Source: Candidatus Omnitrophota bacterium (GTDB lineage: Bacteria; Omnitrophota; Gorgyraeia; Zapsychrales; JANLHA01). From it: 64,000 nt of DNA. The stretch lies in NCBI GenBank assembly GCA_029560465.1, contig JAKQKX010000016.1:71178-135177 (forward strand), written 5' to 3'. Under the pieces are notes generated by a model, which ran no database searches, was not told where the DNA came from, and saw only the letters and a program-made list of their open reading frames with translations. Shown in pieces: positions 7,130-44,940 of this stretch. Position 1 is the stretch's first letter, and every line of letters begins with the position of its first letter. The position numbers and the translations under genes are program-made.

Positions 7130-7528
7130 TTAAAATGGCCGGTTTTTAAGAAGGATTTTGCTGGTCAAAAACCATATCATCACGGCGCTGGCCAGAAGAA
7201 TAAACCAGAACAGGGGGGATTTGATGAACCGCATCCCCCCGAAATTCCTTCTTGGTTCCAGCTCGACTTCGCCCTGCCGTTCTCCGTTTTGATAGTAATA
7301 TTCGTGGAGGACATTTCCGTTTTTATCAAAAAATTGTTCAATGCCGTGTTTTTGCCCGGCGACATATGTTACTTGAGATTTTAATTTTCCCGAGGAATAG
7401 TATGTCTTGTGTTTCCCTTCGCGGGGGGGGTGGCTGAACGCCGGCGTGAGGCCGAAGGCCAGAAGCATGAGGGATAATCCCGCGGTTTTCATCAGGCATC
7501 TTTGTTTTTTGAAAATGATGTTGAACAA
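7130..7528 (-). CDS. MORN-repeat / YwqK-family protein (secreted)
   Basis: Signal peptide 'LMKTAGLSLMLLAFGLTPAFS'; 'YYSSGKLKSQVTYVAGQKHGIEQFFDKNGNVLHEYYYQNGERQGE' are MORN-like repeats typical of YwqK family proteins; the only convincing minus-strand gene in the window. Confidence 0.55.
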   Translation of the reverse strand: MFNIIFKKQRCLMKTAGLSLMLLAFGLTPAFSHPPREGKHKTYYSSGKLKSQVTYVAGQKHGIEQFFDKNGNVLHEYYYQNGERQGEVELEPRRNFGGMRFIKSPLFWFILLASAVMIWFLTSKILLKNRPF

Positions 7529-7752
7529 TGTTGCCCCTTGTTTTTTATCGCCGGAAATATAATAAAATATTATATAACAGATAAATTTTGTTTTATAGGA
7601 AGGATTTGAATTTAATATAAGGCCCGTGAATTTATTGTGTTTTTATTTTTGTTCATAAAAAATTCATAATATAATAAAAACTAATACTTTATCCAACTGT
7701 CCCGAAAAGGACGTGTCTATTTATATTCCTTTTTAAAAAGAGAGGTCATTTT
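7529..7752. promoter_or_regulatory. AT-rich divergent intergenic region, probable promoters for the giant gene (+) and the YwqK-like gene (-)
   Basis: ~220 nt of clearly low GC ('ataataaaatattatataacagataaattttgttttatagg...ttcataatataataaaaactaatac') between divergently oriented genes; several TATAAT-like hexamers. Confidence 0.4.
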
Positions 7753-10700
7753 ATGAAAAAATATTCCCAGCGCGTAGTGATGATTTTTTTGTGTGGGGTG
7801 ATTCTGTCATTGATCATGGTAACGGGGGCCGGGGCTAAAGATAAAGGAGTCAGCTTAACCGAAAAGGTGGAAAGCCTTCTGAGAAAATATGAGGCCCTGC
7901 GCGATGAAAACCAACAGATGAAGGATGCGCTGGAAGAGGCGGAAAGCCAGGTGGAGCTGTTTAGGGGGAAATTCCTGGAATTGGAAAACCGGGGGGGTGT
8001 TCTTCAGAAACAACTGGAAACGCGCACGCAGGAACTGAAAGAGGCGCAAGCGGCTATAAAAAATCGAGAAGGGACGGCGGATGAGGGCCGGGCGGAATTG
8101 GAAAGAATTGTCGCTGAATTAAGGAAAGACAACAAGCAACGGGAGGAAAGGATTCAATCGCTTGAGGAGAAGCTCCGGGAAGCCGACGCTCGGCAAGCCA
8201 GCGCAGTTGAAAAGGCGGCCTTTGAAAAGGAGCTGGCCGTCCTTAAACGGGAGAATGAAACCTTAAAAAAAGACCTGGAGGGCCTTGAAAAGAAGCTTCA
8301 GCAGGCAGATATGGCTTTGAAGGAAAAAGGCGCTGCCGCTCAAACGGCTTTAGAACAGGAAATACGGGGATTAAATCAAGAGTTGCAGCTGAAAGGGGCG
8401 TTTATCCGTGACGGGGAGTCGCAGATTGAGTCGTTAAAGGGGGAAAATACCCGCCTGGTTAAACAGATGGAAGACTTGCAGGCGCGTATTCAGGATTTAA
8501 CCGCCCGCCGGGATAAAAAGGAGGATTCCCTGGCTAGGAAGATTGAAGAGGCCCGGGAACCGTTGCAGAAGAAAATTGATGAGCTTCAGGCCCGCTTGGA
8601 TGCCGTCCCCAAAACGGAACAGCAGAAAATAGAAGAAGTCCGCCGGCCGTTATTGAGCAAGGTGGAAGAGCTTACGAGCGAGAATGCGGCCTTGAAAAAA
8701 TCGATGAAAGAAAAATTGAGCGACGCGCAGGAGCCTTTGTTGAAGGAAAATGGGGAGTTGAAAGCGCGGCTGCGCGAGGCGGAAGAACAGCTTGCCGGCG
8801 AGATCCGCCGGGCAGACCGGTTGGTCGACGAGAAAACCGGTGCGATGAGAAAGCAGGTTGAGGGGGCGGAGGCGGCTTTGAAAGAAAAAGACAAGACCGT
8901 CTTTTCTTTGCAAGAAAAATTGAACCAGACAGAGCAGCGGATCGCCGCGGCGGAAGGGGAAAAACAGAAAATTATCAAAGACGCGAAAGACCAGGAAAGA
9001 GAAATGCGGCAGCAGATCGTGGCGTTAGAGAAAGACTTGAAGACCGCGGAGAAAAAAGAATCAGCGAAATCCCTCCGTGAAAAGGAAGATTTGCAGAAAG
9101 AGAACGTGGCCCTCCGGGAGGAAATTCAGTCTTTAGAAAAATCCTTGCCCGAAAGAGTGGAACAGGCCAGGAAACCGCTTATGGAAAGAATCGACGACTT
9201 AATGGCTGAAATGCAGCAGGCACAAAAGAAAATGGAAGCCGAGATTGAGCTGTCCCGGAAGCCGTTAGAGGAAAAAGTGGCTGGCTTGGAAGAGGATCTG
9301 CGTCTGGAGCGCCAGCGTAAGAAGGATAAAGCGGCTGGACAGGAAGACACTTTGCGTAAGAAAATAACGGAGATGGAGCAACAGCTCCGGCAGGCGGATG
9401 CGATTGCGGCTGAGAAAGCGGCAGCCGCGAAAGCCCTTTTGCAGGATAAGGTCGTGGCTTTGGAGCAGCAGTTGGCAGATCAGAAAGCGGCCCTCCCGGG
9501 ACAGATCAGTCAGGCTAAGAGAGCTGCGGATGAAGAAGTGAAATTACTTAAGGCCCAGTTGAGAGAGAAGGATCTAACCCTTTCAGCCCAGGAAGAGGCT
9601 CTCAAGAAAAATTATGAGGTGAAGTTGCAGGGTTGGCAGAGGGACCTGAAGGCGGCCCAGGACACGATGAAGAACCAGGAGGCGGAAATCCACAAGAAAG
9701 AAACGGCTTTGGAGCAGTCTGCTCGGGAACTAGAAGCTGCTCGAACCCGGAATGGTTCGTATCAGAAAGATATTGATGCTCTTCGTGATCAGCTGAAAAG
9801 CAAAGAGCAGCGTGTGGAGCAGCTTGCTCAGGAGCGGACTGCGAATTATCAGGCCCGGATCGATGAGAAAGAAAAGGAATTGAAAGAAGCCAGGGAGGAC
9901 GGCCAGAAAAAATTGGCAGAGGCGATGAAGGCGAAGGATGAGGAAATAGAACAGTTGCGGAGCCAAATGAAAGCGCAGGAGGCTTCTGTTTCGGAAAGGA
10001 TCGCCCGGGCCAAGCAGCCGTTGGAAGAAGAAATAAAGGGTCTTAACAAAGAGTTGCGGGTTAAGAAGAATGCCAGCAAAGAGGATATTCAGGCCGCGCA
10101 GAAGCCGTTGGAAGATCAAATCAAAGAGATGGAGAAACAGTTGCTGGAGAAGGAGGCCACCTGGACCCGGAAGGTTGATGAGGCGCGCGTCCCGCTTTTG
10201 GAGAAAATCCGGTCTTTGGAAGAAATGGTTAAAAATACCGAAGCTGCGGTTTCGGCGAGGATTGAAAAGGCGAAAGCACCGTTCATGGGCCAGATCCAGG
10301 CCTTGGAGGAAGAACTCGCCGAGAAGAACGCGTTTTGGCCGGAAAAGATTGAAGAAGAAAAGACCCCGTTGCGGGAGCAGATCCAGGCCTTGGAAGCCCG
10401 GCTTAAGGAAAAGGACGCTGAGCTTAAAGCCAGGGTTGAGGAAGCGGAGTCCCCTTTAAAAACGGAAATCGTAAGGTTAAAAGAAGACCTGAATGCGGCG
10501 CGGAAAGAGCAGGAAGCCCGTTTGAAGGAAGAACAAAGTGTCCGGAAAGCGGCGGTGGATCAGGTCACGCAGGAATTCAACGATTATAAGAATTCCGAGC
10601 CTGACAGAATCGCCAGGGTCAAGCAGCCTTTAGAGGCGAAAATCGGGGAATTGCAGAAAGATTTGAAAGAGGCGAAGAGCCGGAAAGATGAGGCCCGGAA

Positions 10701-13700
10701 AGCCGCCTTGAAACCTCTGGAAGAAAAAATTAAGGAATTGGAAGCCCGGCTCAAGGATCAAGAAACCGAGTGGGCTGCGAAGGGTGAAGACGCGAAGGCC
10801 CCTCTTGTGGAGAAAATTCGAGCCCTCGAGGATGCCCTTAAAGAGCAGGCGTCCGGGATAGAGGCTAGAATGGAAGAGGCTAAAGCGCCTTTGCTTGAAC
10901 AGGTTCAGGAATTGGAGCAACGACTTTCGGAAAAGGAAACGCTTTGGCCGCGGAAAGAGGATGAAGCGAAAGCCCCGCTGTTGGAAGAGATTCAAACGCT
11001 TAAACAGCGCCTGCAGGAGAGAGAGGCTGAGGTGGCCATGAGGATTACCGAGGCGGAAGCGCCGTTGAAAGAAAATATTGCGGTTTTAAAAGAAGACTTA
11101 CGGGCGGCCAGGGCGGATTCAGAAGCCCGGGTGAAGGCCGAGCAAGATATTTGGCGGAAAGACGTGGAGAAAGCACGGAAGGAATTTAAAGAGTATAAAG
11201 ATTCCGAAGTGGAACGCGTGGCTAAGGTCAAGCAGCCGTTGGAGAAAAAAATAGAAGCGTTGCAGCAGGACCTGAAAGAAGCCAAAAACCGAAAAGGCGC
11301 GGTTTTGCAGGCCGCGCAAAAACCCCTGGAAGATAAGATTAAAGAGATGGAAGCACAGTTGCGCGAACAGAAAGAGATGTTGGCGTCCAAGGTGGAAGAG
11401 GCCAAAGCGCCGTTGCTTGAACAGCTGCGGGCTCTTGAGGGAAGCTTAAAAGAGAAGGAATCCGGGGTTGCCGTTCAAATAGAGGCTGTGCAAGTTCCCT
11501 TGAAAGAACAGATTAAAGTTCTTGAGGAAGGGGTGCGGCAAAAGGAAGCCGAAGCGGCTGCGTTGGTTGAGGATGCCCGGTCGGCCCACAAAGAGGAGCT
11601 GCGCCTGGCCAGGGCAGACGCGGAAGAACGTCTGAAGGCGGAGCAGGAGGCCCGAAGGGTGGAGGTTGAAAAGATTCAAAAGGAATTTCAGGATTACAAG
11701 GATAGCGTCGCGGAAACTGTGGCCAAAGACAAGCATCCTCTGGAAGAGGCGATAGCGATGTTGCAGAATGATTTAAAAGAATCGCAGGTCAGGAAAGATG
11801 AAGACATCAAACTCGCGAAAAAACCATTAGAGGACAAAATTAAAGAGCTTGAAAAGGACCTTCGCCAAAGGGGATCGGATATTCAGGATAAAGTCAAGGC
11901 GGCGCAGCGTCCTTTGGAAGAGAATATCGCGCTTTTAAAAAAGGATTTGGAAAATAAAGATAAAGAGTGGGCGGTTAAAATTGAGGAGGCCAAATTCCCC
12001 CTGGAGGTCAAAGTCCGGGCTTTGGTGCAGAAACTGGATGAACGGGACGCGGCGATTTCCCGCGTGATCAAAAAAGCGAAAGCGCCTTTAGAGAAAGAAA
12101 TCGAGGCGCTGACGGTGCGACTGAAAGAAACACAGGGAACGGTTGCCCTGGAGGTCGCCCGTTTGAAGCAGGCGGCCCAGGAGCAGGAGCAGGCGTTGGC
12201 GGAAAAAATCGTCCTGGCCAAGAAGCCCTTGGAAGAGCGGGTTGTTGTCCTGCAAAACGAGTTGAGCGCGGCGAAAGACGCCGCCTCTCGAAAAGCCGAT
12301 GAAGCCAAGGCCCCGTTGCAGGAAAGGATTGATTATCTTCTGGAAAAAATGAAAACGGATGAAATGCTTTATAAAACCAGCATGAAAACAGATCAGGAAA
12401 AAATCCAGGAAGAAAGAAAGGGGTGGCAAGCGCAACGGAAGGATTTGGAGAAATTAATCCAGCAGAAAGAGCGGGACATTAAGCAATTGACGACGGAAAA
12501 AGAATCTTTATCCAAGGATCTTGATGTGGCCGGCGAGAAGAGTAAAAAACTTAATGAACTCGTTGAGCAGGCCCGGGGAGAGCACCAGTCGCTTCAGTCC
12601 GATCTTCCACAGAAAATCGCGGAAGCCCAAAAGCCATTGCTGGCGAAGATTGACGCGTTGGAAGCGGAGAAACGGGGTTTGGAAGCTTCTTTGCCTGAAA
12701 AAATCGCCCAGGCCCAAACCGGGCTGGAAGCTCAAATCCAGCAGCTGAAGGAAACGATTAAAGCGAAAGAGGCCGGTATTCCGGCTTTGATTGAAGAAGC
12801 CCAAAAGCCTCTGCGGGCTGAAGTGAGCCAATTACAGGCTGAATTGAAAAAAACCCACGCGTCTTTACCGGAGGAAATTGTTCAGGCGAAACGACCCCTG
12901 GAACAGAAGGTGGCGTCTTTGGATCAAGCGTTAGTGGAGAAGGACCGGGGACTTCAGAAGCATTTGAAGGAAAAAGACGATTTGAATAAAGAGCTTGTGG
13001 CCGCCTTGAAAGAGAAGACGGCTTTGAATGACCGTGTCTTGAGTTTGCAAAAAGACCTGCAGGCCGCGCAGGCCCAATCTCAGCGCGGGGAAGAACAAAT
13101 TCGAAAAGATTATGACCGGAAGATAGAAGATTTGCAGGCGGCCCTGCAGAAAGCCCAGCAGGCGCTTCCGGAAGCTGTGGCGTCGGCCAAACAGCCTTTT
13201 GTCGACAAAATTGTCGGCCTGGAGGAGGCGTTAAAAGCGAAGGATGCGGAAATGTCGCAGCGTGTCACCGACGCCAGGAAACCGTTGGAAGAGAAAATTC
13301 TGACCCTGCAACAGCAAATGAAGGAACAAGAAGCGGCCTGGCCCCAAAGTGTTGAGCAGGCCCGAGGGCCTCTTTTAGCCCGTATTGAAGAATTGACGAA
13401 GGACTTGCAAGCAAGCGAGGCCAGGCTTCCTCAGAAGGTCAAGGAGGCCAAGTCTCCTTTGGAGGAGGAGGTCCGGGCCCTGAAGGCGGAATTGCAGCAA
13501 AAGAATCAATCATTGCCGAAACAGATTCAGGACGTTCAGAAGCCGTTGCAGGAGGAAATTGCGGCTTTGAAAAAGCAGCTTCAAGATAAAGATAAGGAGT
13601 TCTCCCGTCAGGACACCGCGCTTGAAAATTCCGGGGCTAAACTTCAGCAAACTTTGAAGGAGTTGGAGTCCTCGCAAAAAACGGTTGCCGAACTTACGGC

Positions 13701-14583
13701 TCAAAAGGCCCAGGTTGAACAGCAGCTTTTGGAAAAGAGCAAGTCTGTGCCCCAACTGATGGAGGAGGTTAAGCGTCCTTTGGAAACCGAAATCGGCCGT
13801 TTGAAAGAGGAACTCAAGTTAAAAGAGCAAGGCTTGCCTCAGCAGATATTAGCAGTCCGTAAGCCTTTGGAAGAAAAGATTCTTACGTTGGAGAAAGACC
13901 TGCAGCAGGCCCAGGCGTCAGTAAAAAATCAGATTGCGGAAGCCCGCAAGCCCCTGGACCAGAAGATCGCCGCATTGGAGAAACAGAACAAAGAAACCGA
14001 GAACGCGGTTAAAAATAAGTTGGCTGAGGCGCGGAAGCCTCTGGAGGCCAGGATTAAAGCTTTGGAGGAAGAGGTCAAGGCTGCCCAAAAACAGTCTGCC
14101 CAGCAGATTGCGCAGGAAAAAAGCGCCGCTGACAAGAAAATCAATGATCTGCAACAGCAGCTTGGCGCGCTTAAGATAACAATGCAAGGGAAAGATTCCG
14201 CTTTTCAGGATATGGAAAAGGAACTTGATCGTATTACAATCAGCCTGTCCGCCGTTCAGCAGGAGAATATTTTTCTGAACAATGAGCTGGCCGAGGCCAA
14301 GAAATCGCTTCAAACAATTGAGGGGAAATTGACGAATACATATTCCAAGAAACAGGTCGAGCTGGAAGACAAGGTGAGGTTCCTTATGGAAATTATCGAT
14401 CAGAAGGACACCCTTCTGCAGGAACAGGTCAATTTGGTGGCGGAAAAGGATAAACAAATCGCGGCCCTCACTCAGGAAGCGGATGATTTGGCCAAGGATT
14501 ATTTTTCAATTCTGGATAAGAATGTGTCTTTGAGTGAAAGGCTTGAAAGGCTTGAGCAACAACAACCGGCGTCGGCCCGGTAA
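7753..14583 (+). CDS. giant (2,276 aa) secreted proline-punctuated coiled-coil repeat protein (apolipoprotein A/E-like amphipathic helix repeats)
   Basis: Single uninterrupted ORF with a GAGAGG RBS; N-terminal signal peptide 'MIFLCGVILSLIMVTGAGA'; then ~2,200 aa dominated by E/K/A/L/Q with dozens of '(A/E)(K/R)(K/A/Q)PL(L/E)E(K/Q)(I/V)..L(E/K)..L' units each beginning with a helix-breaking Pro; ~230-aa higher-order repeats. Confidence 0.8.
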   Translation: MKKYSQRVVMIFLCGVILSLIMVTGAGAKDKGVSLTEKVESLLRKYEALRDENQQMKDALEEAESQVELFRGKFLELENRGGVLQKQLETRTQELKEAQAAIKNREGTADEGRAELERIVAELRKDNKQREERIQSLEEKLREADARQASAVEKAAFEKELAVLKRENETLKKDLEGLEKKLQQADMALKEKGAAAQTALEQEIRGLNQELQLKGAFIRDGESQIESLKGENTRLVKQMEDLQARIQDLTARRDKKEDSLARKIEEAREPLQKKIDELQARLDAVPKTEQQKIEEVRRPLLSKVEELTSENAALKKSMKEKLSDAQEPLLKENGELKARLREAEEQLAGEIRRADRLVDEKTGAMRKQVEGAEAALKEKDKTVFSLQEKLNQTEQRIAAAEGEKQKIIKDAKDQEREMRQQIVALEKDLKTAEKKESAKSLREKEDLQKENVALREEIQSLEKSLPERVEQARKPLMERIDDLMAEMQQAQKKMEAEIELSRKPLEEKVAGLEEDLRLERQRKKDKAAGQEDTLRKKITEMEQQLRQADAIAAEKAAAAKALLQDKVVALEQQLADQKAALPGQISQAKRAADEEVKLLKAQLREKDLTLSAQEEALKKNYEVKLQGWQRDLKAAQDTMKNQEAEIHKKETALEQSARELEAARTRNGSYQKDIDALRDQLKSKEQRVEQLAQERTANYQARIDEKEKELKEAREDGQKKLAEAMKAKDEEIEQLRSQMKAQEASVSERIARAKQPLEEEIKGLNKELRVKKNASKEDIQAAQKPLEDQIKEMEKQLLEKEATWTRKVDEARVPLLEKIRSLEEMVKNTEAAVSARIEKAKAPFMGQIQALEEELAEKNAFWPEKIEEEKTPLREQIQALEARLKEKDAELKARVEEAESPLKTEIVRLKEDLNAARKEQEARLKEEQSVRKAAVDQVTQEFNDYKNSEPDRIARVKQPLEAKIGELQKDLKEAKSRKDEARKAALKPLEEKIKELEARLKDQETEWAAKGEDAKAPLVEKIRALEDALKEQASGIEARMEEAKAPLLEQVQELEQRLSEKETLWPRKEDEAKAPLLEEIQTLKQRLQEREAEVAMRITEAEAPLKENIAVLKEDLRAARADSEARVKAEQDIWRKDVEKARKEFKEYKDSEVERVAKVKQPLEKKIEALQQDLKEAKNRKGAVLQAAQKPLEDKIKEMEAQLREQKEMLASKVEEAKAPLLEQLRALEGSLKEKESGVAVQIEAVQVPLKEQIKVLEEGVRQKEAEAAALVEDARSAHKEELRLARADAEERLKAEQEARRVEVEKIQKEFQDYKDSVAETVAKDKHPLEEAIAMLQNDLKESQVRKDEDIKLAKKPLEDKIKELEKDLRQRGSDIQDKVKAAQRPLEENIALLKKDLENKDKEWAVKIEEAKFPLEVKVRALVQKLDERDAAISRVIKKAKAPLEKEIEALTVRLKETQGTVALEVARLKQAAQEQEQALAEKIVLAKKPLEERVVVLQNELSAAKDAASRKADEAKAPLQERIDYLLEKMKTDEMLYKTSMKTDQEKIQEERKGWQAQRKDLEKLIQQKERDIKQLTTEKESLSKDLDVAGEKSKKLNELVEQARGEHQSLQSDLPQKIAEAQKPLLAKIDALEAEKRGLEASLPEKIAQAQTGLEAQIQQLKETIKAKEAGIPALIEEAQKPLRAEVSQLQAELKKTHASLPEEIVQAKRPLEQKVASLDQALVEKDRGLQKHLKEKDDLNKELVAALKEKTALNDRVLSLQKDLQAAQAQSQRGEEQIRKDYDRKIEDLQAALQKAQQALPEAVASAKQPFVDKIVGLEEALKAKDAEMSQRVTDARKPLEEKILTLQQQMKEQEAAWPQSVEQARGPLLARIEELTKDLQASEARLPQKVKEAKSPLEEEVRALKAELQQKNQSLPKQIQDVQKPLQEEIAALKKQLQDKDKEFSRQDTALENSGAKLQQTLKELESSQKTVAELTAQKAQVEQQLLEKSKSVPQLMEEVKRPLETEIGRLKEELKLKEQGLPQQILAVRKPLEEKILTLEKDLQQAQASVKNQIAEARKPLDQKIAALEKQNKETENAVKNKLAEARKPLEARIKALEEEVKAAQKQSAQQIAQEKSAADKKINDLQQQLGALKITMQGKDSAFQDMEKELDRITISLSAVQQENIFLNNELAEAKKSLQTIEGKLTNTYSKKQVELEDKVRFLMEIIDQKDTLLQEQVNLVAEKDKQIAALTQEADDLAKDYFSILDKNVSLSERLERLEQQQPASAR

Positions 14584-14593: not shown

Positions 14594-15808
14594 ATGAACA
14601 GAAACCGTATACGGCATTTTGATCCCCGGGCAGGAGGATCGTCGGTTTATCCTGCCGCCTTCATCGTGTGCCTGCTGTTGGCCGTGGGCTGGGGCATGTG
14701 GCCTGAGGTGTTGGCGGCTGAGACCGACGAAGACGCGCAGCCTTTTTCTTACCGCCAGCAACTTATCAACAAGGAATTGTCCCAGCAGGAAATGCTAGGC
14801 GAGAAATCTGGGCCCGAGAATACGGAAGGATCCTTTGATGGCCGGTCTCCCACATATAATTTGTCCGGAGACGGGAGAGGATCCGCCCCTTTGGGCTTCA
14901 CGGGTGGTGAACACAAGGCCTGCCCTTTTCCCCCGGAAAGGACCAAGGCGGTCACGGAAGCCCTGAACCGGGTTGAAGTGGGCCTGGAAACATTTGCCTT
15001 CTCTTACCGGGAGCCGGGCGTTATGAAAGACCGGGGTTGTCTGACGGGCGTTTACGGGGTTTTCACTCATCGGCTGGCAGACAACCAGCATATTAAAACG
15101 TTCAAGGACGCCTGGCGTGACAAGCTCAAAGTCAACAAGCTTTCTGTGGAAGGCCGTTTTGCCGGCGGGGATGTGGATTATGAATCTGAAGAGACCGGAA
15201 CGCGTGATGGCTTGAATTTTTATGTTTTTGAACTCCGGGGCCTCCTGGCTTATGAGATGCCGCTGATCCCGTCCGGTGCCATCACGCCGTTTTTCGGGGT
15301 GGGGTTCCGTTACCTCAAAGATGACAGCGGCGGGAAAGTTAGCTCGACGAATAACTGGTTTTATGACCGGGAAAGCCGGTATTTTTACCTGCCCATCGGG
15401 CTCGAAATCTCCCGCCGGATGAAAAACCGCTGGTCTGTGAGCCTGACCTGCGAGTATGACATTTTTCTTGTGGGTAAGCAGAAGAGCCATCTGGAAAACG
15501 GCGGGGCGACAGTGCTTTCATCCAGCGACGGACAATTGTACGTCCTGGATACGTTGGAAAACGACCAGGAAGAAGGTTTTGGCTTGCGGGGTTCTCTGAA
15601 GTTCATGAAAAGTCATGATAGATGGGATTTTGTTTTTGAGCCGTTTGTGCGTTACTGGAATCTGAAAGATTCCCAGCTGGCGCAGTGGACGTCCAACAGC
15701 GGCAGCCTTTTGTGGTATTATGACCCGGCCCGGGAGTATCCTGTTTACGGGTATGAACCGGAAAACAACACCACGGAATACGGAGTGCGGATAGGGTTTT
15801 ATTATTGA
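14594..15808 (+). CDS. secreted OMP-like (beta-barrel candidate) protein
   Basis: ATG 11 nt after the giant gene's stop; signal peptide 'AAFIVCLLLAVGWGMWPEVLAAE'; alternating hydrophobic/aromatic segments; C-terminal 'YGVRIGFYY' aromatic terminus typical of outer-membrane barrels. Confidence 0.5.
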   Translation: MNRNRIRHFDPRAGGSSVYPAAFIVCLLLAVGWGMWPEVLAAETDEDAQPFSYRQQLINKELSQQEMLGEKSGPENTEGSFDGRSPTYNLSGDGRGSAPLGFTGGEHKACPFPPERTKAVTEALNRVEVGLETFAFSYREPGVMKDRGCLTGVYGVFTHRLADNQHIKTFKDAWRDKLKVNKLSVEGRFAGGDVDYESEETGTRDGLNFYVFELRGLLAYEMPLIPSGAITPFFGVGFRYLKDDSGGKVSSTNNWFYDRESRYFYLPIGLEISRRMKNRWSVSLTCEYDIFLVGKQKSHLENGGATVLSSSDGQLYVLDTLENDQEEGFGLRGSLKFMKSHDRWDFVFEPFVRYWNLKDSQLAQWTSNSGSLLWYYDPAREYPVYGYEPENNTTEYGVRIGFYY

Positions 15809-16039
15809 ACGCTGTTTTGTTTTTCCAAGGCGTCCCGGCCTGACTTTTTAAAAGGGTCTCCAACCTGAAAATTTTTACTGTTCCCCGGTTTCATCCCGCC
15901 ATGTTTTTGTTTGTTCGGATAACTACTGTGGCGGGGCTTTCACTGAAGGCAAGGTTTGATTTTTAAGGGGTCGTCCAGAAGCATTCTTTTGTCTTTCGCT
16001 TGTTTCTGAATATAATTTAAGTTACAATAGGCCTCTGAA

Positions 16040-36618: not shown

Positions 36619-38370
36619 GTGAGCGGACCAAGGACCGGACAGGTCATAGGAGTGAACGGGAATATGGTCGCGGTGGTTTTCAGCGACCGCGTGATGCAGA
36701 ATGAAGTGGCCTATGTGATCGTGGGATCAGAACGGCTTAAGGCCGAGGTCATTCGGGTCAAGGGCAAGCGCGCGGACCTGCAGGTGTTTGAAGACACCCA
36801 GGATATCCGCGTTCATGATACGGTTGAGTTTACCGGTGAGCTCTTGAGCGTGGAATTGGGGCCGGGGCTTCTGACCCAGGTTTTTGACGGGCTGCAGAAC
36901 CCGTTGCCGGAGTTGGCGAAGCAATTCGGATTCTTCCTTCAACGCGGCGCTTACCTGACCGCGCTGGACGCCGAACAGCGCTGGGAATTCACGCCTGCTG
37001 TTAAAGTCGGCGATAAAGTGCTGGCCGGGGAGAAGCTTGGGACTGTTCCGGAAAAAATTTTTCAGCACTGGATTATGGCGCCGTTTAACCTGCCCGGAGA
37101 GCTGGACGTGGCCGGGATCGTCCCCAAGGGGTCTTACAAGATGAAAGACACGGTCGCCCGGCTTAAAGACAGCCAGGGCAAGGAGCATTCCGTCACGATG
37201 AGACAGCTCTGGCCGGTGAAAGTGCCGATCACCGCCTACGTTAAAAAGATTAAGCCCACCCAGCCGCTGGTAACGCAGATCCGTATCATTGACACGCTGG
37301 TGCCAGTCGCGGTCGGCGGCACGTTTTGCACGCCGGGGCCGTTTGGCGCGGGCAAGACCGTGTTGCAGCATTTGATCAGCCGGCACGCGGACGTGGATAT
37401 CGTCGTGGTGGCCGCATGCGGGGAGCGGGCCGGGGAAGTCGTGGAGCTTCTTAAAGAGTTTCCTGAGCTGAAAGACCCTAAGACCGGCCAGACTCTGATG
37501 GACCGGACCGTGATTATTTGCAACACCAGCTCCATGCCTGTGGCCGCCCGGGAGTCCAGCGTGTACACCGCCGTGACCCTGGCGGAATATTACCGGCAGA
37601 TGGGGTTGAATGTTCTTCTGTTGGCCGACTCGACGTCACGATGGGCCCAGGCCATGCGGGAAATGTCCGGCCGCCTGGAGGAAATCCCCGGTGAAGAAGC
37701 GTTCCCGGCGTACCTCGAGACCCGGATCGCGTCTTTTTATGAGCGGGCCGGCCTGGTGCAGCTGCACAATGGCGGGCGGGGCTCGGTCACGATCGGCGGG
37801 GCCGTGTCCCCGGCGGGAGGGAATTTTGAAGAGCCGGTCACCCAGGCGACCTTGAAGGTGGTGGGCGCGTTTCACGGGCTGTCCCGGGACAGGGCGAATG
37901 CCCGGCGTTATCCGGCCATCGACCCTTTGGACAGCTGGAGCAAATATCAAAGTTTTATCGACGGGTCTAAAGTCCGGAAAGGCGTCGCGATCCTGCGCAA
38001 GGCGAACAATGTTTCGCAGATGATGAAAGTCATCGGCGAGGAAGGGACCACCATCGAGGAATTCGTGGATTACCTGAAAGGTGAGTTTTTTGACGCGGTC
38101 TACCTTCAGCAGAACGCGTTCGATCCCCAGGATGAGGCGACCTCGGCCGACCGGCAGGCGTATGTGTTTGACATCATGGAAGCGATCCTGGACCAGCGGT
38201 TTGAATTTCCGGATAAAACCGAAGCCCGGCGCTTTTTTCAGGATTTAAGGCAAAAATTTCTCAACTGGAATTCAACGGCGTTTCAAGGTGATGAGTTTAA
38301 GAACATTGAAGCCGGAATTAAACGCCAACTGTCCGGGGACGAGCGTCTTCAGGCAACAGAAAAGAAGTGA
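36619..38370 (+). CDS. atpA: V-type ATP synthase catalytic subunit A
   Basis: Walker A 'GPFGAGKT'; 583 aa; GTG start. Confidence 0.95.
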
Positions 38371-38381
38371 GGTCAGGTGCG

Positions 38382-39695
38382 ATGCAAAAGGTTTACAGTC
38401 AGATCCTGCAGATCGCAGGCGATGTTATAACCGTGGAAGCGGAAGGCGTGGCCTACCGGGAGCTCGCGGAAATCCAGTCGCGCAGGGGCATGTCGATGGC
38501 CCAGGTGATTCGTCTGGATGGGAACAGGGTGTCTCTTCAGGTTTTGGCCGGCAGCCGCGGTCTTTCCACGGACGATAAAGTGCGGTTTTTGAAGCACCCT
38601 ATGCGGGTGTCTTTCTCGGATAACCTTCTCGGCCGCATTTTTAACGGCAGCGGCGTGCCGCGTGACGGCGGGCCCTCCCTGGATGAGAACATGATCAATA
38701 TCGGCGGGCCTTCGGTCAACCCGTCCAAGCGTGTTGTGCCGCGCAACATGATCCGCACCGGGATCCCGATGATCGACATTTTTAACAGCCTGGTGGAATC
38801 GCAGAAACTGCTGATCTTTTCCGTGGCAGGGGAGCCGTATAACCCGCTTTTGGCGCGGATCGCCCTGCAGGCGGAAGTTGACCTGATCGTGCTCGGCGGC
38901 ATGGGCCTGAAATACGACGATTTTCTTTTTTTTAAAGACACCCTGGAACAGCACGGGTCCCTGTCCCATTCGGTGATGTTTATTCACACGGCCGCTGACC
39001 CGACGGTCGAATGCCTGCTTGTGCCGGACATGAGCCTGGCGGTGGCCGAACAGTTCGCTTTGGCTGGGAAACGGGTCCTGGTCCTTTTGACCGATATGAC
39101 CAACTTTGCCGACGCGTTGAAAGAAGTTTCCATCACCATGGAACAGATTCCGTCCAACCGCGGGTATCCTGGCGATTTATACAGCCAATTGGCCGCCCGT
39201 TATGAAAAGGCCGTGGATTTTGATACCGCTGGATCCATCACTGTCTTGTCGGTGACGACCATGCCCGGTGATGACGTGACCCACCCGGTGCCGGATAATA
39301 CCGGGTATATCACCGAGGGGCAGTTTTACCTGAAAAACGGGCGCATTGAGCCGTTCGGAAGTTTGAGCCGATTGAAACAGCAGGTGAACGGCCGCACCCG
39401 CGGCGACCACCGCACGATTATGGACCGGATGATCCAGCTGTTCGCTGATTATCGTTCAACGCTGGAGAAAAAGTCGATGGGCTTTGAAATGAGCCCCTGG
39501 GACGACAAGCTTTTAAAATACGGGCAGCGGTTTGAACGGGAATTGATGGACTTAAGCGTGAACATTCCTCTCGAGGCGGCGCTGGATTTGGGGTGGCGCA
39601 TCCTGGCGGATATTTTTGAGCCGGCGGAAACCGGCATTAAGGAATCATTATTGAAGCAGTTCTGGCCGAAACCCGCCGCAGTGCCCGCGTCCTAG
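38382..39695 (+). CDS. atpB: V-type ATP synthase subunit B
   Basis: Degenerate P-loop region; regulatory B-subunit blocks ('[14 protein letters not shown]'); ATG at 38382 preferred over the track start 38367. Confidence 0.9.
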
Positions 39696-39743
39696 TGGGC
39701 CTGGCGTAAATGTGACGGAGGCGGTGTTTAAAGAAAGTGGTAT

Positions 39744-40382
39744 ATGGGAAAGATCAAGCTCACAAAAGGCGAGCTGAAACGCCAGCGCGACGGGTTAAAG
39801 CAGTTTCAGCATTATCTGCCGACCCTGCAGCTCAAGAAACAGCAGCTTCAGATGAAAATTCTGGAAGCCAGCCGGGCGCTTGAGGCGAAGGACGCATCGT
39901 TGGCCGAGCAACGGCGGGCGATGAGCCGCTGGGTGGGGCTTTTGGCCGACCCGATGATGCTGGAGAGCATGGATTTTAAAGAATGGCTTATCCCTTCTCC
40001 GGAAGATGTGAGCATCGAAACGTTGAACATCGCCGGGGCGGACATGCCGGTTTTAAAGGACGTCCGTTTTAAGGATGTGGATTATGATTTGTACCTGACG
40101 CCGTTTTGGGTGGATCAGGGGCTGGCGGTCATGCGGCGGTTTGTCCGGGATGACATAGAGGCCGGGATCATCAGGGAACAGATCAGGATCCTGCAGAAGG
40201 AGCTGCGCGTGACGACCCAGCGGGTGAATTTGTTTGAAAAAGTGAAGATCCCGGAATGCCTGGAGAATATCCGGGTGATCCGTATTTACCTCGGCGACCA
40301 GCAGGCGAACGCCGTGGGGATCAGCAAAGTGGCCAAGAAGAAAATCGAGGTCATGGCCCAGCTTGAGGCCGTGACGGCATAA
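39744..40382 (+). CDS. atpD: V-type ATP synthase subunit D
   Basis: 'TKGELKRQRDGLKQFQHYLPTLQLKKQQLQ' N-terminal coiled coil typical of the D (central stalk) subunit. Confidence 0.85.
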   Translation: MGKIKLTKGELKRQRDGLKQFQHYLPTLQLKKQQLQMKILEASRALEAKDASLAEQRRAMSRWVGLLADPMMLESMDFKEWLIPSPEDVSIETLNIAGADMPVLKDVRFKDVDYDLYLTPFWVDQGLAVMRRFVRDDIEAGIIREQIRILQKELRVTTQRVNLFEKVKIPECLENIRVIRIYLGDQQANAVGISKVAKKKIEVMAQLEAVTA

Positions 40383-40400
40383 GGATTTCAAGGAAACGTT

Positions 40401-42131
40401 ATGATCGTGCCGATGAAAAAAGTTTTTCTCTTTGTTCAGGATAAAGACCTGGAGGCGGCCCTGCTCCGGTTAAGGGACATGGGCGTGCTGCACGTTGAGC
40501 ATTTGCGGACGCCGGTGGGCGAGGGCTTGAACCAACTCAAAGACGACATTAAGCTCCTGGAACAGGTCGTCGGGTACTTGACGCACGAGCATAAAAACCC
40601 GGACCAGGTGGACGCCGTAGACTGGGAAGAGACCGCGGATGTTGTTTTGGGGCTGGCGGCCTTAAGAGACGGTGACCGGGAGGGGATCGCTAAACGCCAG
40701 GTGCAGATCGAAGAGTGGGAGCCGTGGGGTGATTTCAGCCTGGAGGATATCGCACACATCCGCGCCCAAGGCCTGAAAGTGGAACTGGTGGAAGTCCCGG
40801 AAAAAGATGTTGGGAACGCGCCCGAAGGCGTTATCCTGGAGCCGGTTTTCACGAAACGCGGGGTTGCCCGGTGCCTGGCGCTGTCATATAAAGACGGCGA
40901 TATTCCTTATAAAACATTACCGTTTCCGTACCAACGGTTGAGCCGTCTTAAAGAAGAACAACTTTGGCTGCGCAAGCGGGTCAAAGAGTCGCATCAGCAG
41001 CTTTTGGATGACAGCAAATACCTGGATTATTTCCGGAGGACTCTCGCCCAGAAACGGGAACAGCTCGTTTTTGAAAATGTTATAGAGGGCCGTGAGATCA
41101 CCGGGCGCATCAATTATATTAAGGGGTTCTGTCCTGTCGACGCGGCCGGCCCGCTGGAAGCCGCAGCGCGGGAAGAACACTGGGGCCTGCTGCTGGAAGA
41201 CCCGTCGGAAAGTGATCAGGTGCCGACCCAGCTGCGCTATCCTTCCTGGGTGGCCATGATCAAACCTCTTTTTGCCATGACCCAGATTGTGCCGGGGTAC
41301 CGGGAAGTGGATATCAGCCCGTTTTTCCTGGTTTTCTTTAGCGTGTTCGTTGGGATATTGATCGGGGACGCGGGGTATGGCGCGGTGACCCTGTTGGGCC
41401 TTATCATTTTTTATTTTAGAATGAAGAAAGCGAACCGGCTGACCCCGGGAATAAAGACTTCGGTCCAACTTGGGTATCTGTTGAGCGGGTGCGTGATTCT
41501 ATGGGGCGTCTTAAGCGGCACCTATTTCGGCCAGGGCTGGCTGGACGGCACGGTCAAACCGCTGGTGCCCTGGGTCAACAATGAGCGTAATTTCCAGCTG
41601 CTTTGCTTTTTGATCGGCGCTGTTCATTTAACCATCGCGCACGCTTGGCGGCTGCTGCAGCGGCTGCCGTCTTTAACCGCGGTGGTGGAAGCCGGGTGGA
41701 TTCTGATCGTCTGGGCCATGTTTTTCATCGCGCGCATGTTGATCCTGGCGTATCCGCTACCGGCCGTAGCCAAATTTTTATTAGGAACAGGAATCTTTCT
41801 GGTTCTTTTCTTTACCAAACCCCAGCGGAATTTGATTAAAGCCGGGCTGGCCGGCCTGGGAAATTTGGCTTTAAACATCGTGAATTCCTTCACGGACGTT
41901 GTGTCGTATATCCGGCTTTACGCGGTGGGGCTGGCTTCCGTGGCCGTCGCTGACGCGGCCAACGCCATGCCTTTTATAGGCATGGTTTTGCTTCATGTGA
42001 TCAATTTTAACCTGGCGCTTCTGGCGTTGATGGTACACGGCGTGCGGTTGAACACCCTGGAATTTTCCGGCCACCTGGGCCTGGAGTGGGCGGGTTTTGC
42101 GTATGAACCGTTTCAGAAAACGAAGTCATAA
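40401..42131 (+). CDS. atpI: V-type ATP synthase subunit I (a-subunit)
   Basis: 576 aa; soluble N-terminal half then ~8 TM helices with a conserved Arg-containing helix ('HGVRLNTLEF'). Confidence 0.8.
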   Translation: MIVPMKKVFLFVQDKDLEAALLRLRDMGVLHVEHLRTPVGEGLNQLKDDIKLLEQVVGYLTHEHKNPDQVDAVDWEETADVVLGLAALRDGDREGIAKRQVQIEEWEPWGDFSLEDIAHIRAQGLKVELVEVPEKDVGNAPEGVILEPVFTKRGVARCLALSYKDGDIPYKTLPFPYQRLSRLKEEQLWLRKRVKESHQQLLDDSKYLDYFRRTLAQKREQLVFENVIEGREITGRINYIKGFCPVDAAGPLEAAAREEHWGLLLEDPSESDQVPTQLRYPSWVAMIKPLFAMTQIVPGYREVDISPFFLVFFSVFVGILIGDAGYGAVTLLGLIIFYFRMKKANRLTPGIKTSVQLGYLLSGCVILWGVLSGTYFGQGWLDGTVKPLVPWVNNERNFQLLCFLIGAVHLTIAHAWRLLQRLPSLTAVVEAGWILIVWAMFFIARMLILAYPLPAVAKFLLGTGIFLVLFFTKPQRNLIKAGLAGLGNLALNIVNSFTDVVSYIRLYAVGLASVAVADAANAMPFIGMVLLHVINFNLALLALMVHGVRLNTLEFSGHLGLEWAGFAYEPFQKTKS

Positions 42132-42158
42132 AGGATTTTTATAAAAGAGGAGAGAGAG

Positions 42159-42605
42159 ATGGAACAGAACGTGTTAATGCAATTTCAGGATTTGGGGCTC
42201 GCTGCGGCCGTGTCGTTAGCCGCTATTGGATCGGCGCTTGGAAGCGGCTCGGCGGGGATGTCGGCGGTGGGTGCCTGGAAGAAGTGTTACGCGCAGAGCA
42301 AAGCGGCCCCGTTTTTGCTGGTCGCGTTTGTCGGCGCGCCACTCTCCCAGACCATTTACGGCATGATCCTGATGAATAAAATCGCCGGCGCAGTCCAGGG
42401 CGGAGCCTATTACTGGGGCGCCGGGATTTTCGGCGGGGCGGCCTTGGGTGTCTCGGCCTGGTTCCAGGGCAAGGCCGGTGCCGGAGCTGCTGACGCTTTG
42501 GCGGAGACCGGGAAGGGGTTCACGAATTATCTGATGGTGCTGGGGATTATTGAAACCGTGGCCCTGTTTGTCATGGTCTTTTTGCTGGGCAAGGTGGGGG
42601 CGTAA
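42159..42605 (+). CDS. atpK: V-type ATP synthase subunit K (proteolipid)
   Basis: 148 aa hairpin proteolipid, Gly-rich helices, conserved Glu in 'GIIETVALF'. Confidence 0.8.
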   Translation: MEQNVLMQFQDLGLAAAVSLAAIGSALGSGSAGMSAVGAWKKCYAQSKAAPFLLVAFVGAPLSQTIYGMILMNKIAGAVQGGAYYWGAGIFGGAALGVSAWFQGKAGAGAADALAETGKGFTNYLMVLGIIETVALFVMVFLLGKVGA

Positions 42606-42633
42606 AGGGGTTCTGCCGGGTGAAAAGCCTGTG

Positions 42634-42662
42634 TTGACAGTTGTTTGAAAGAATAGTATTAT
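42634..42662 (+). promoter_or_regulatory. sigma70-type promoter for the tRNA-Val/tRNA-Asp pair
   Basis: TTGACA (42634-42639), 17-nt spacer, TATTAT (42657-42662); tRNA starts 11 nt downstream. Confidence 0.5.
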
Positions 42663-42673
42663 AACACGATCTT

Positions 42674-42750
42674 GGGCGATTAGCTCAGCTGGTTAGAGCG
42701 TCCGGCTTACATCCGGGAGGTCGAGGGTTCAAGTCCTTCATCGCCCACCA
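42674..42750 (+). tRNA. tRNA-Val (anticodon TAC), CCA encoded
   Basis: Acceptor GGGCGAT/ATCGCCC, D-arm GCTC-AGCTGGTTA-GAGC, anticodon loop CTTACAT, T-arm GGTTCAAGTCC, 3' ACCA. Confidence 0.9.
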
Positions 42751-42811
42751 GAAATTTTTTCTTTACAAAAGCTTATTTGCATAATACACTTATACTTTCC
42801 CAAAAGATTTT

Positions 42812-42889: not shown

Positions 42890-42914
42890 TATAAGTTCCC
42901 GTTGTTGATGGGCG

Positions 42915-44923: not shown

Positions 44924-44940
44924 GGAAGAGAGGGGAAAGC

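What the first reader, a model, noticed from the sequence alone, without database searches (positions are those of the whole stretch)
7753..14583. 2,276-aa secreted, proline-punctuated coiled-coil repeat protein (apolipoprotein-like)
A single 6.8-kb ORF encodes a signal peptide followed by ~2,200 residues of E/K/A/L/Q-rich helix. Dozens of near-regular units of roughly 22-33 residues each begin with 'x(K/A)PL(L/E)E(K/Q)I'. A Pro opening each amphipathic helix is the organising principle of exchangeable apolipoproteins (A-I/A-IV/E) and of some bacterial surface fibrils, and is unusual at this scale in bacteria. The gene is followed 11 nt later by an OMP-like gene and preceded by a conspicuously AT-rich regulatory region. 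It could be a lipid- or membrane-binding periplasmic scaffold, an extracellular matrix or fibril protein, or a cytoskeleton-like element. The 6.8-kb, 2,276-aa length is unusual for a bacterial protein.
Basis: seen in the sequence. Interest (0 to 1): 0.75.

Follow-up and report, generated by a model that had tools for sequence, protein, structure and literature searches.

The report
Secreted 29-residue proline-marked coiled-coil giant
An uncultured Omnitrophota bacterium encodes a real, conserved 2,276-residue exported fibre protein built from about 40 strict 29-residue helical units, each marked by an invariant proline; it is co-transcribed with an outer-membrane barrel, belongs to a very rare unnamed family, and is most likely a cell-envelope scaffold, not an apolipoprotein relative.

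Summary
ORF 7753-14583 is intact. It has an N-terminal signal sequence and about 2,250 residues of helix. It contains 40 'P-[LF]' units at a strict 29-residue period, not 22-33 (22 consecutive Pro spacings of 29, against 0.7 expected).

The hydrophobic period in the repeat zone is 3.63, which equals 29/8. That predicts a nearly untwisted coiled coil. Both ends are heptad-based.

Intact orthologues of 2,306 and 2,319 aa occur in four independent Omnitrophota assemblies, including a 3.36-Mb chromosome. Each is followed by the same barrel gene. dN/dS is 0.13-0.18, and indels come in 29-residue quanta. This is not a misassembly.

The neighbour models as a 10-stranded barrel resembling OpcA and the omptins, with a periplasmic N-terminal extension.

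Apolipoprotein membership fails on the Pfam score (18 bits against a cut-off of 90), the period, and the narrow hydrophobic seam. No Pfam, NCBIfam or PDB relative exists. Only about 25 protein clusters among 1.84 billion share the motif P-x-K-I-x-x-A-K-x-P-L-E-x-K-I, and every one with a complete N-terminus has a signal peptide.

Best reading, at moderate confidence: a segmented envelope fibre or scaffold, probably periplasmic. Function remains inferred.

The parts
7529..7752 (+). AT-rich (25% GC) upstream intergenic region. It contains a -10-like element, AATTCATAATATAATAAAAA (about 7661-7680), shared with the most distant orthologue, and the RBS GAGAGG (7740-7745).
   Evidence: The consensus sigma-70 scan found no canonical promoter on the + strand here, so promoter assignment is inferred from conservation only.
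7753..14583 (+). Giant gene: a 2,276-aa exported segmented coiled-coil protein.
   Evidence: Intact orthologues of 2,306 and 2,319 aa. dN/dS 0.13-0.18.
7753..7836 (+). N-terminal signal sequence (aa 1-28: MKKYSQR / VVMIFLCGVILSLIMVTGAGA / cleavage-like A-G-A|KD). No lipobox is present. An uncleaved signal anchor cannot be excluded.
   Evidence: Read from the sequence. The same n-h-c layout occurs in the orthologues. No dedicated predictor was available.
7837..8532 (+). N-terminal heptad coiled coil (aa 29-260, hydrophobic period 3.51). The first ~25 residues after the signal sequence (SLTEKVESLLRKYEALRDEN) are strongly conserved.
   Evidence: The same N-terminal motif is present in the distant fragment P0143.
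8533..14097 (+). Zone of 29-residue proline-marked units (40 units in 8 in-register arrays). The hydrophobic period is 3.60-3.63, i.e. 29/8.
9991..11556 (+). Longest uninterrupted 29-residue register (aa 747-1268, 18 unit positions). It contains the duplicated 203-aa (7x29) super-repeat.
   Evidence: AlphaFold model of aa 747-1161: all-helical, pLDDT 80.8, with breaks only at W-P sites.
14101..14580 (+). Most conserved part: the C-terminal 160-aa heptad domain (ISLSAVQQENIFLNNEL...KVRFLMEIIDQK...LTQEADDLAKDYFSILDKNVSLSE...), ending in A-x-A-R. It is a presumed docking or assembly domain.
   Evidence: (78% mean column identity across four lineages). Also present in the distant fragment P0140.
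14594..15808 (+). Co-transcribed 404-aa outer-membrane protein. It comprises a signal peptide (aa 1-42), a low-confidence periplasmic extension with one helix (aa 43-124) and a 10-stranded beta-barrel (aa 125-404).
   Evidence: There is no terminator-like site between the two genes, and a promoter-like site appears only after the barrel gene, at 15989-16016.

Best explanation
This is a structural fibre of the cell envelope of an Omnitrophota bacterium.

Proposed mechanism:
- The Sec pathway exports the protein, using either a cleaved signal peptide or possibly an inner-membrane signal anchor.
- It then forms a parallel coiled coil of two or a few strands. If fully extended, the rod would be up to about 330 nm long.
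- The conserved heptad segments at both ends act as assembly or docking domains.
- The long middle is a chain of 4.3-nm modules (29 residues, 8 core positions, arranged as 11+7+11). This periodicity removes almost all supercoil.
- Each module carries one invariant proline on the flank of the hydrophobic seam. That proline creates a regularly spaced hinge, or a recognition site, always in the same orientation.
- The rod therefore behaves as a segmented, bendable spacer or scaffold, most likely lying within the periplasm. It is expressed together with a 10-stranded outer-membrane barrel whose periplasmic N-terminal extension may anchor it.

Shown here: the gene is real, the protein is exported, the helical periodicity, the proline phase, conservation, modular indels, and the operon arrangement.

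Inferred: oligomeric state, periplasmic (as opposed to surface) location, docking on the barrel, and the mechanical role.
For: Exported: the signal sequence is present in the window protein, in all orthologues and in all distant relatives with a complete N-terminus. No ATPase or other globular domain was detected.

Coiled coil rather than lipid belt: the hydrophobic arc is narrow, about 74 degrees, with K/R flanks and an acidic far face. The period is 3.63 in the arrays and 3.51/3.54 at the two ends.

The module is the unit of evolution: indels among the orthologues are 29 residues (seven events), or 7, 11, 18, 22 or 40. Total length is 2,276, 2,306 or 2,319 aa at only 39-70% identity.

The proline is functional: the position-10 Pro is conserved at 32 of 40 orthologous sites in all four lineages, while the position-1 Pro is conserved at only 6 of 17. 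Phases 10, 11 and 18 are the most conserved. The same motif recurs in distant relatives at other spacings.

The helices pass through these prolines in the AlphaFold model.

Purifying selection: omega is 0.13-0.18.

The ends are the most conserved parts.

Operon with the barrel: the gap is 10 nt with no terminator, and the pairing is kept in every lineage that has the gene.

The barrel's termini, and hence its N-terminal extension, face the periplasm. This follows from established outer-membrane barrel topology for an even number of strands, here 10.

No outer-membrane secretion machinery lies nearby.

Distant relatives sit in envelope or polysaccharide-export neighbourhoods.
Against: - There is no experimental or expression evidence of any kind.
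- Signal peptide versus signal anchor was judged by eye, and the cleavage site in the L010 orthologue is poor.
- Barrel homologues at 34-52% identity keep the same N-terminal helix but have no giant gene beside them. The barrel therefore predates the giant gene, and the pairing may be mere co-transcription.
- A rod of about 330 nm cannot span a periplasm perpendicularly. It would have to lie tangentially, fold back on itself, or be outside the cell.
- The structural model is a single-sequence monomer with pTM 0.35.
- Length conservation rests on only three distinct lengths.
Confidence: 0.45

Rival explanations
1. Surface fibril or adhesin. After Sec export the protein is moved across the outer membrane, for example by a type II secretion or pilus-like system encoded elsewhere. 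It would project up to ~300 nm from these ultra-small, reportedly host-dependent cells to contact prey or hosts. The OpcA-like barrel would serve as its base or act as a co-adhesin.
For: - Omnitrophota are described as ultra-small and host-dependent or predatory (abstracts listed).
- The best structural match of the neighbour is the adhesin OpcA.
- One distant relative lies near type II secretion pseudopilin genes, and two lie next to polysaccharide-export loci.
- The rod is far longer than any periplasm is wide.
Against: - No outer-membrane translocator lies in the locus.
- The barrel has 10 strands and matches autotransporter translocators poorly (TM 0.35-0.43).
- No adhesive head, lectin or Ig-like domain is found at either end.
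- The secretion genes near P0002 are separated from it by genes on the opposite strand.
Confidence: 0.2
2. Apolipoprotein-like lipid or membrane binder. The amphipathic 29-residue helices, kinked at each proline, would lie on or wrap around membrane, vesicles or lipid particles in the envelope.
For: - Prolines are regular and sit at a fixed phase.
- K/R residues sit at the polar-nonpolar interface and acidic residues at the centre of the polar face, which resembles class A amphipathic helices.
- A period of 3.63 gives a straight hydrophobic stripe.
- There is a weak sub-threshold PF01442 match in the repeat zone, at aa 1079-1256.
Against: - PF01442 scores 18.3 bits against a cut-off of 90.
- The hydrophobic face is only 7 of 29 positions, an arc of about 74 degrees. 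The broad nonpolar face of class A lipid-binding helices is established knowledge and was not computed here.
- The heptad ends are typical of coiled-coil assembly.
- There is no structural or sequence hit to any apolipoprotein.
- The invariant proline lies on the flank of the seam, about -100 degrees, not opposite it.
Confidence: 0.1
3. Nebulin-like ruler or template. Each 4.3-nm proline-marked module would bind one subunit or period of a periodic envelope polymer (peptidoglycan strands, a pilus or sheath, or a lattice of the barrel protein). The protein would set the length or spacing of that polymer.
For: - A conserved ~22-residue motif repeats at strict spacing, within a 7-module super-repeat.
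- Surface-exposed motif positions are conserved, not only the core positions.
- Indels are quantised and overall length is conserved.
- In distant relatives the same motif recurs at fixed larger spacings of 78 and 156 residues.
Against: - No partner has been identified.
- The super-repeat is clear only for three copies.
- Motif spacing differs between family members, which argues against a single universal partner period.
Confidence: 0.12
4. Artefact, or a dead or cytoplasmic gene: a repeat-driven misassembly, a pseudogene, or an SMC-like or cytoskeletal protein wrongly read as secreted.
For: - A 99.5%-identical public assembly (L007/L008) has two 1-bp deletions that split the gene into three called ORFs.
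- There are sub-threshold SMC matches in NCBIfam.
Against: - The ORF is intact in the window and in four other assemblies, including a complete chromosome.
- The gene has no tandem DNA repeats, and its longest direct repeat is 68 nt at 62-72% identity.
- Substitutions against L007 are 23 synonymous to 12 non-synonymous (omega 0.14), and they lie on both sides of the supposed frameshifts, which sit in short G runs.
- The signal sequence is conserved, and there are no ATPase heads.
Confidence: 0.03

Closest known systems
SF-assemblin / beta-giardin (eukaryotic striated-fibre proteins, PF06705)
   Same: [quoted passage not shown] The overall period is therefore the same 29/8, with a module of about 4.3 nm. 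These proteins form filaments and paracrystals.
   Different: - There is no significant homology: PF06705 scores 19 bits against a cut-off of 30.6, and the match lies outside the 29-residue arrays.
- They are cytoplasmic and microtubule-associated, with a rod of about 250 residues. PMC2119799 reports proline only in the non-helical head.
- The protein here is exported, nine times longer, and carries an invariant proline in every module.
Exchangeable apolipoproteins A-I/A-IV/E (PF01442)
   Same: Both have tandem amphipathic helical repeats punctuated by proline at a fixed phase, with basic residues at the interface and acidic residues on the far face.
   Different: - Their repeats are 11/22 residues (period 3.67), against 29 residues (period 3.63) here.
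- They have a broad lipid-binding face, against a narrow seam here.
- The Pfam score is far below threshold.
- No fold or sequence hit was found.
CrvA/CrvB periplasmic polymer of Vibrio cholerae ('periskeleton')
   Same: It is an exported protein that polymerises in the periplasm and acts mechanically on the envelope (summarised in PMC11369160). That CrvA is coiled-coil-rich is from my own knowledge, not from that passage. It is the nearest functional precedent for a periplasmic fibre.
   Different: Homology was not tested, because no CrvA sequence was at hand. From memory, CrvA is far smaller and has no 29-residue proline-marked repeat and no barrel partner. No shape phenotype is known for these Omnitrophota.
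Scy / FilP / crescentin (bacterial intermediate-filament-like coiled-coil proteins)
   Same: These are long bacterial coiled-coil rods. From my own knowledge (Walshaw et al. 2010, not re-read here), Scy uses an unusual long-period repeat of 51 residues (period about 3.64), which likewise nearly abolishes supercoiling.
   Different: [quoted passage not shown] The window protein gives no Pfam Rod_CreS hit.
Coiled-coil outer-membrane tethers and stalks (OmpM/Omp-alpha/SlpA, Lpp, trimeric autotransporters)
   Same: They combine a coiled-coil rod with an outer-membrane beta-barrel or anchor. The rod acts as a spacer whose length matters (papers listed).
   Different: In those systems the rod and barrel are one polypeptide, or the rod is a lipoprotein, and the rods are tens to hundreds of residues long with an SLH domain or a lipobox. 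Here the rod and barrel are separate genes, there is no SLH domain and no lipobox, the barrel has 10 strands and resembles OpcA and the omptins, and the rod is about 2,200 residues.

Membership tests
Exchangeable apolipoprotein (Pfam PF01442) | Sequence match at or above the family's gathering score | tested here: not met
   18.3 bits against a cut-off of 90, E = 0.002.
Exchangeable apolipoprotein (Pfam PF01442) | Tandem 11/22-residue amphipathic repeats (period about 3.67) | tested here: not met
   The repeat is exactly 29 residues and the hydrophobic period is 3.60-3.63.
Exchangeable apolipoprotein (Pfam PF01442) | Proline at a fixed position of each repeat | tested here: met
   Pro is invariant at unit position 10 in 40 of 40 units, and a second Pro occurs at position 1 in 13 of 40. 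However, the modelled helices continue through position 10.
Exchangeable apolipoprotein (Pfam PF01442) | Broad nonpolar face able to bind lipid | tested here: not met
   The hydrophobic arc is about 74 degrees, covering 7 of 29 positions. Lipid binding itself cannot be tested with these tools.
SF-assemblin / beta-giardin (Pfam PF06705) | Sequence match at or above the gathering score | tested here: not met
   19 bits against a cut-off of 30.6. The match covers aa 172-284, outside the 29-residue arrays.
SF-assemblin / beta-giardin (Pfam PF06705) | 29-residue repeat with eight core positions (four heptads plus a skip) | tested here: met
   The period is 29, with core positions 4, 7, 11, 15, 18, 22, 25/26 and 29. 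The family definition is taken from PMC2119799.
SF-assemblin / beta-giardin (Pfam PF06705) | Cytoplasmic, microtubule-associated protein of eukaryotes | tested here: not met
   The gene is bacterial (Omnitrophota) and the protein has an N-terminal signal sequence.
Type V secretion (classical or trimeric autotransporter) | Passenger and translocator barrel in one polypeptide | tested here: not met
   They are two separate ORFs with a stop codon and a 10-nt gap between them, in all lineages.
Type V secretion (classical or trimeric autotransporter) | 12-stranded translocator barrel | tested here: not met
   The model has 10 strands. The best matches are OpcA (TM 0.70-0.82) and OmpT/Pla, while NalP and EspP reach only 0.35-0.43. 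Some shorter homologues carry weak PF03797 hits.
OmpM / Omp-alpha / SlpA outer-membrane tethers | SLH (or other peptidoglycan-binding) domain joined to a coiled-coil stalk and barrel | tested here: not met
   Neither protein has an SLH or peptidoglycan-binding Pfam hit.
Braun lipoprotein-type tether | Lipobox with an acylated Cys, and a C-terminal Lys for cross-linking | tested here: not met
   There is no lipobox. The only Cys lies within the hydrophobic core and is absent in the L010 orthologue. The C-terminus is a conserved A-x-A-R.
SMC / cytoplasmic coiled-coil ATPases | N- and C-terminal ATPase head halves and a hinge | tested here: not met
   Only sub-threshold coiled-coil matches were found (65 bits against a cut-off of 567). 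There are no head domains, and a signal sequence is present.
Periplasmic polymer (CrvA-type periskeleton) | Exported coiled-coil-rich protein | tested here: met
Periplasmic polymer (CrvA-type periskeleton) | Sequence homology to CrvA, and filament formation in the periplasm | not tested
   No CrvA sequence was compared, and polymerisation cannot be tested with these tools.
Unnamed family defined here (secreted giant coiled coils with the motif P-x-K-[IV]-x-x-A-[KR]-x-P-L-E-x-K-[IV]-x-x-L) | Signal sequence, long coiled coil and repeated motif | tested here: met
   The window protein has 40 copies. P0001, P0002, P0003, P0135-P0144 and others carry 1-25 copies. phmmer E-values reach 1e-33 in a library of 1.84 billion proteins.

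The most novel reading that the evidence does not exclude
The protein is the first example of an extracytoplasmic 'segmented ruler' cytoskeleton. It would be a periplasmic or pericellular coiled-coil fibre whose 4.3-nm proline-marked modules each engage one period of an envelope polymer or lattice, as nebulin does on actin. It would set the envelope geometry of ultra-small Omnitrophota cells. The rare motif family would then be a new class of bacterial envelope-organising proteins.
Probability: 0.15. Interest if true: 0.8.

Novelty: new variant of a known kind. Interest (0 to 1): 0.55.

Why it matters
If the reading is right, it adds a new structural element to the bacterial envelope, in a phylum with no cultured representative and little known cell biology.

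It also adds a clean natural example of a 29/8 coiled coil that tolerates, and indeed requires, one proline per module. That is useful for understanding and designing non-heptad coiled coils.

The family has no Pfam, NCBIfam or PDB relative. It is so rare (about 25 clusters in 1.84 billion proteins) that it has gone unnoticed. In at least one public MAG the gene is mis-annotated as three ORFs.

The conserved ends and modular rod make direct tests possible: localisation, oligomeric state, partner binding and Pro-to-Ala variants.

Tried and rejected
- A 58-column profile of double units, searched against 5.8 billion proteins, gave no hit at E <= 1e-3. It was too short for that database size.
- A genome-contig scan with the whole protein found nothing. 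Repeating it with the conserved C-terminal domain found the orthologues.
- Orthologue rows were not accepted for structure prediction, and MAFFT aligned overlapping window segments by identity instead of as paralogues. The rod was therefore modelled from a single sequence.
- Foldseek of the rod model gave only non-significant matches to axonemal filament proteins (best E = 9e-3, TM 0.16).
- A PDB sequence search returned zero hits.
- The sigma-70 and terminator consensus scan gave no clear promoter upstream of the gene.
- I considered and rejected a lipoprotein (no lipobox), a split autotransporter (10-stranded barrel), an SMC (no heads) and a misassembly.
- I considered the barrel as a dedicated co-evolved partner. 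This idea is weakened because more distant barrel homologues lack the giant gene.
- The rest of the window is housekeeping and gave no functional clue.
Full report
OBSERVATION

The ORF 7753-14583 (+) is real. It starts with ATG, has GAGAGG 8 nt upstream, encodes 2,276 aa, and is the only long ORF over this span. Composition is E/K/A/L/Q-rich, with 57 prolines and a single Cys that lies in the signal sequence.

Successive prolines are 29 residues apart 22 times, or 20+9. In 20,000 shuffles the mean number of consecutive spacings of 29 was 0.7 and the maximum was 5.

Forty 'P[LF]' units give the consensus P-E-K-I-E-E-A-K-K-P-L-E-E-K-I-x-A-L-E-x-x-L-K-E-K-E-A-x-L. P10 is invariant and L11 and L18 are nearly so. 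Residues 756-1249 keep one unbroken register. A 203-aa (7x29) block is duplicated.

The upstream intergenic region is 25% GC against 51% for the window. The next gene starts 11 nt after the stop codon.

ANATOMY OF THE ROD

Fourier analysis of core hydrophobic residues gives a period of 3.63 (aa 740-1540) and 3.60 (aa 1600-2120). This equals 29/8 = 3.625. The N-terminal 230 and C-terminal 160 residues give 3.51 and 3.54, the heptad value.

Core positions are 4, 7, 11, 15, 18, 22, 25/26 and 29, which corresponds to 11+7+11. On a 29/8 helical wheel the hydrophobic arc is only about 74 degrees. It is flanked by K/R (positions 3, 14, 25, 8), with an acidic far face. The invariant proline sits on the flank, at about -100 degrees, immediately before core Leu11.

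By established coiled-coil theory, a period this close to the intrinsic helical repeat gives nearly straight, unsupercoiled helices.

A single-sequence AlphaFold model of aa 747-1161 is all-helical (pLDDT 80.8, pTM 0.35). The helices run through the position-10 prolines and break only at W-P junctions and at two other sites. This is a model and not a measurement.

If the rod were fully extended it would be about 330 nm long, with 4.3 nm per module.

IS IT AN ARTEFACT?

No, for these reasons:
- TRF finds no tandem DNA array in the gene.
- The longest direct DNA repeat is 68 nt at 62-72% identity. The repeats are therefore old at the DNA level.
- The exact neighbour protein led to near-identical contigs (L007/L008, 99.5% identity). 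There the gene is called as three ORFs because of two 1-bp deletions in short G runs.
- The 35 substitutions between these strains are 23 synonymous and 12 non-synonymous (omega 0.14), and they lie on both sides of those deletions.
- Intact orthologues exist in OY759724.1, a 3.36-Mb Omnitrophota chromosome (2,306 aa, 41% identity end to end). They also exist in JAGOJP010000028.1 and an activated-sludge contig (2,319 aa, identical to each other, 70% identity to the window protein), and in CAZAXH010000003.1 (2,319 aa, 70% identity). Partial copies are in L012 and L013.
- dN/dS is 0.13-0.18.

EVOLUTIONARY BEHAVIOUR

In a four-lineage alignment the indels are 29 residues (seven events), or 40, 22, 18, 15, 11, 7 or 3 residues. 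Total length stays within 2%.

The position-10 proline is conserved in all four lineages at 32 of 40 sites. The position-1 proline is conserved at only 6 of 17 sites.

The orthologue in L010 carries five near-identical, recently amplified 29-residue units.

The most conserved parts are the first ~25 residues after the signal sequence and the last 160 residues, which show 78% column identity and always end in A-x-A-R.

This pattern of conserved ends, a modular rod and maintained length is what is expected of a spacer or scaffold.

THE NEIGHBOUR

The 404-aa downstream protein has 121 homologues. Most are labelled Candidatus Omnitrophota, and some carry weak autotransporter or OMP_b-brl Pfam hits.

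With a 70-sequence alignment, AlphaFold gives pLDDT 82 overall and above 90 across aa 125-404. The model is a 10-stranded barrel, preceded by a signal peptide and a low-confidence extension with one helix.

Foldseek ranks OpcA first (E = 2e-10, TM 0.70-0.82). OmpT/Pla come next, and autotransporter beta-domains are clearly weaker.

No terminator-like site separates the two genes. A promoter-like site appears only after the barrel gene.

The giant-gene/barrel pairing is present in every lineage that has the giant gene. However, barrel homologues at 34-52% identity (L011, L014, L019, L020) sit between a dCMP deaminase gene and tex, with no giant gene, and they keep the same N-terminal helix. The giant gene was therefore inserted upstream of a pre-existing barrel gene in one clade. 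Co-expression is well supported. Physical docking is an inference.

WIDER FAMILY

Pfam gives only sub-threshold hits: SF-assemblin at 19 bits against a cut-off of 30.6, and Apolipoprotein at 18.3 bits against 90. NCBIfam gives only sub-threshold SMC and helix-rich matches. The PDB sequence search gives nothing.

A word-indexed search of 5.8 billion proteins found three relatives. An exhaustive HMMER scan of 1.84 billion representatives, using aa 740-1939, found 30 proteins at E <= 1e-3. Five or six of these are unrelated Gram-positive surface proteins.

The true relatives are 1,300-4,100-aa coiled coils that share the motif P-x-K-[IV]-x-x-A-[KR]-x-P-L-E-x-K-[IV]-x-x-L, at spacings of 29, 71, 78, 107 or 156 residues.

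Every relative with a complete N-terminus has a signal peptide. The P0001 ORF continues upstream across a 100-N scaffold gap to a signal peptide.

Two relatives lie beside polysaccharide-export genes, and one lies among OmpA and peptidoglycan-binding genes.

Fragments P0140 and P0143 carry the window protein's C-terminal and N-terminal domains respectively.

ORGANISM

The window's GlmS and barrel protein match proteins labelled Candidatus Omnitrophota exactly. The rest of the window is housekeeping.

INTERPRETATION

Best supported (about 0.45): an exported, segmented coiled-coil fibre of the envelope. It is probably periplasmic, because there is no outer-membrane translocator and the barrel's extension faces the periplasm. 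It is co-expressed with the barrel and possibly anchored by it. The prolines would act as regularly phased hinges or recognition marks.

Rivals:
- a surface fibril for host contact (0.2);
- a nebulin-like ruler on a periodic envelope polymer (0.12);
- an apolipoprotein-like lipid binder (0.1);
- an artefact, pseudogene or cytoplasmic protein (0.03).

COMPARISON WITH KNOWN FAMILIES

The protein shares its 29/8 periodicity with SF-assemblin (PMC2119799). It shares proline punctuation with apolipoproteins. It shares its likely compartment with the CrvAB periplasmic polymer (PMC11369160). It shares the rod-plus-barrel logic with OmpM-type tethers and trimeric autotransporters. It fails the defining tests of each of these families (see the membership table).

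I rate it a new variant of a known kind (a fibrous coiled-coil envelope protein) that belongs to an undescribed, very rare family.

Noticed in passing
window 8090 and 11886 (L007/L008:3162-9990): The public MAG GCA_030153525.1 and JGI 3300045917 carry the same gene at 99.5% identity, with two 1-bp deletions in G runs. The gene is therefore annotated there as three ORFs (122, 1,279 and 889 aa). This probably explains why the full-length protein is missing from the protein databases.
   Followed up: yes
L010:2993-9913 (OY759724.1): The 2,306-aa orthologue contains five near-identical consecutive 29-residue units (EPLLEQVRDLEARLKEKDSEVAGRVDKAR). This is a recent module amplification and shows that copy number is still dynamic.
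   Followed up: partly
L001:6913-18472: The distant relative P0001 (2,823 aa as called) continues upstream across a 100-N scaffold gap to a signal peptide. The true protein is probably longer than 3,800 aa. It overlaps a Glycos_transf_4 gene and precedes a Wza/Wzz/Wzy-type polysaccharide-export cluster.
   Followed up: partly
window 14594-15808 and homologues P0005-P0123: This is a large barrel family that is mostly from Omnitrophota. Its members are often annotated as 'autotransporter outer membrane beta-barrel domain' proteins, yet the window's member models as a 10-stranded barrel resembling OpcA and the omptins. In more distant genomes the gene sits between dCMP deaminase and tex.
   Followed up: partly
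window 7661-7680: The element AATTCATAATATAATAAAAA, about 70 nt upstream of the start codon, is shared with the most divergent orthologue (L010) but not with L016/L018. Those two have different upstream DNA and share only the RBS region.
   Followed up: partly
window 7130-7528 (-): A divergently oriented small MORN_2-repeat protein with an N-terminal hydrophobic segment is conserved in synteny upstream of the giant gene in L007/L008 and L010. Any functional link is unknown.
   Followed up: no
window 14569-14580 and orthologue C-termini: All orthologues end in a short tail after the last heptads, finishing A-x-A-R or A-A-R (PASAR, GAAR, PAQAR, AAR, APAR). A conserved free C-terminus could be a recognition tag, for example for a PDZ protease or for docking. 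This is unexplained.
   Followed up: no
window 42000-57000: A stretch of lower GC (0.43-0.49) begins just after tRNA-Val and tRNA-Asp (42674-42889). It encodes methyltransferases, a ParA/NUBPL-type ATPase, a radical SAM protein, an ARMT1-like phosphatase and a metallo-beta-lactamase-fold protein. It could be an island.
   Followed up: no
window 36619-42131: A V/A-type ATPase operon (A, B and D subunits) is followed by a 576-aa ORF with no Pfam match.
   Followed up: no
L016 (CAZAXH010000003.1): The record title says 'uncultured Planctomycetales', but the locus is syntenic with the Omnitrophota loci and its giant protein is 91% identical to that of L015. The taxonomic label is probably wrong or outdated.
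   Followed up: no
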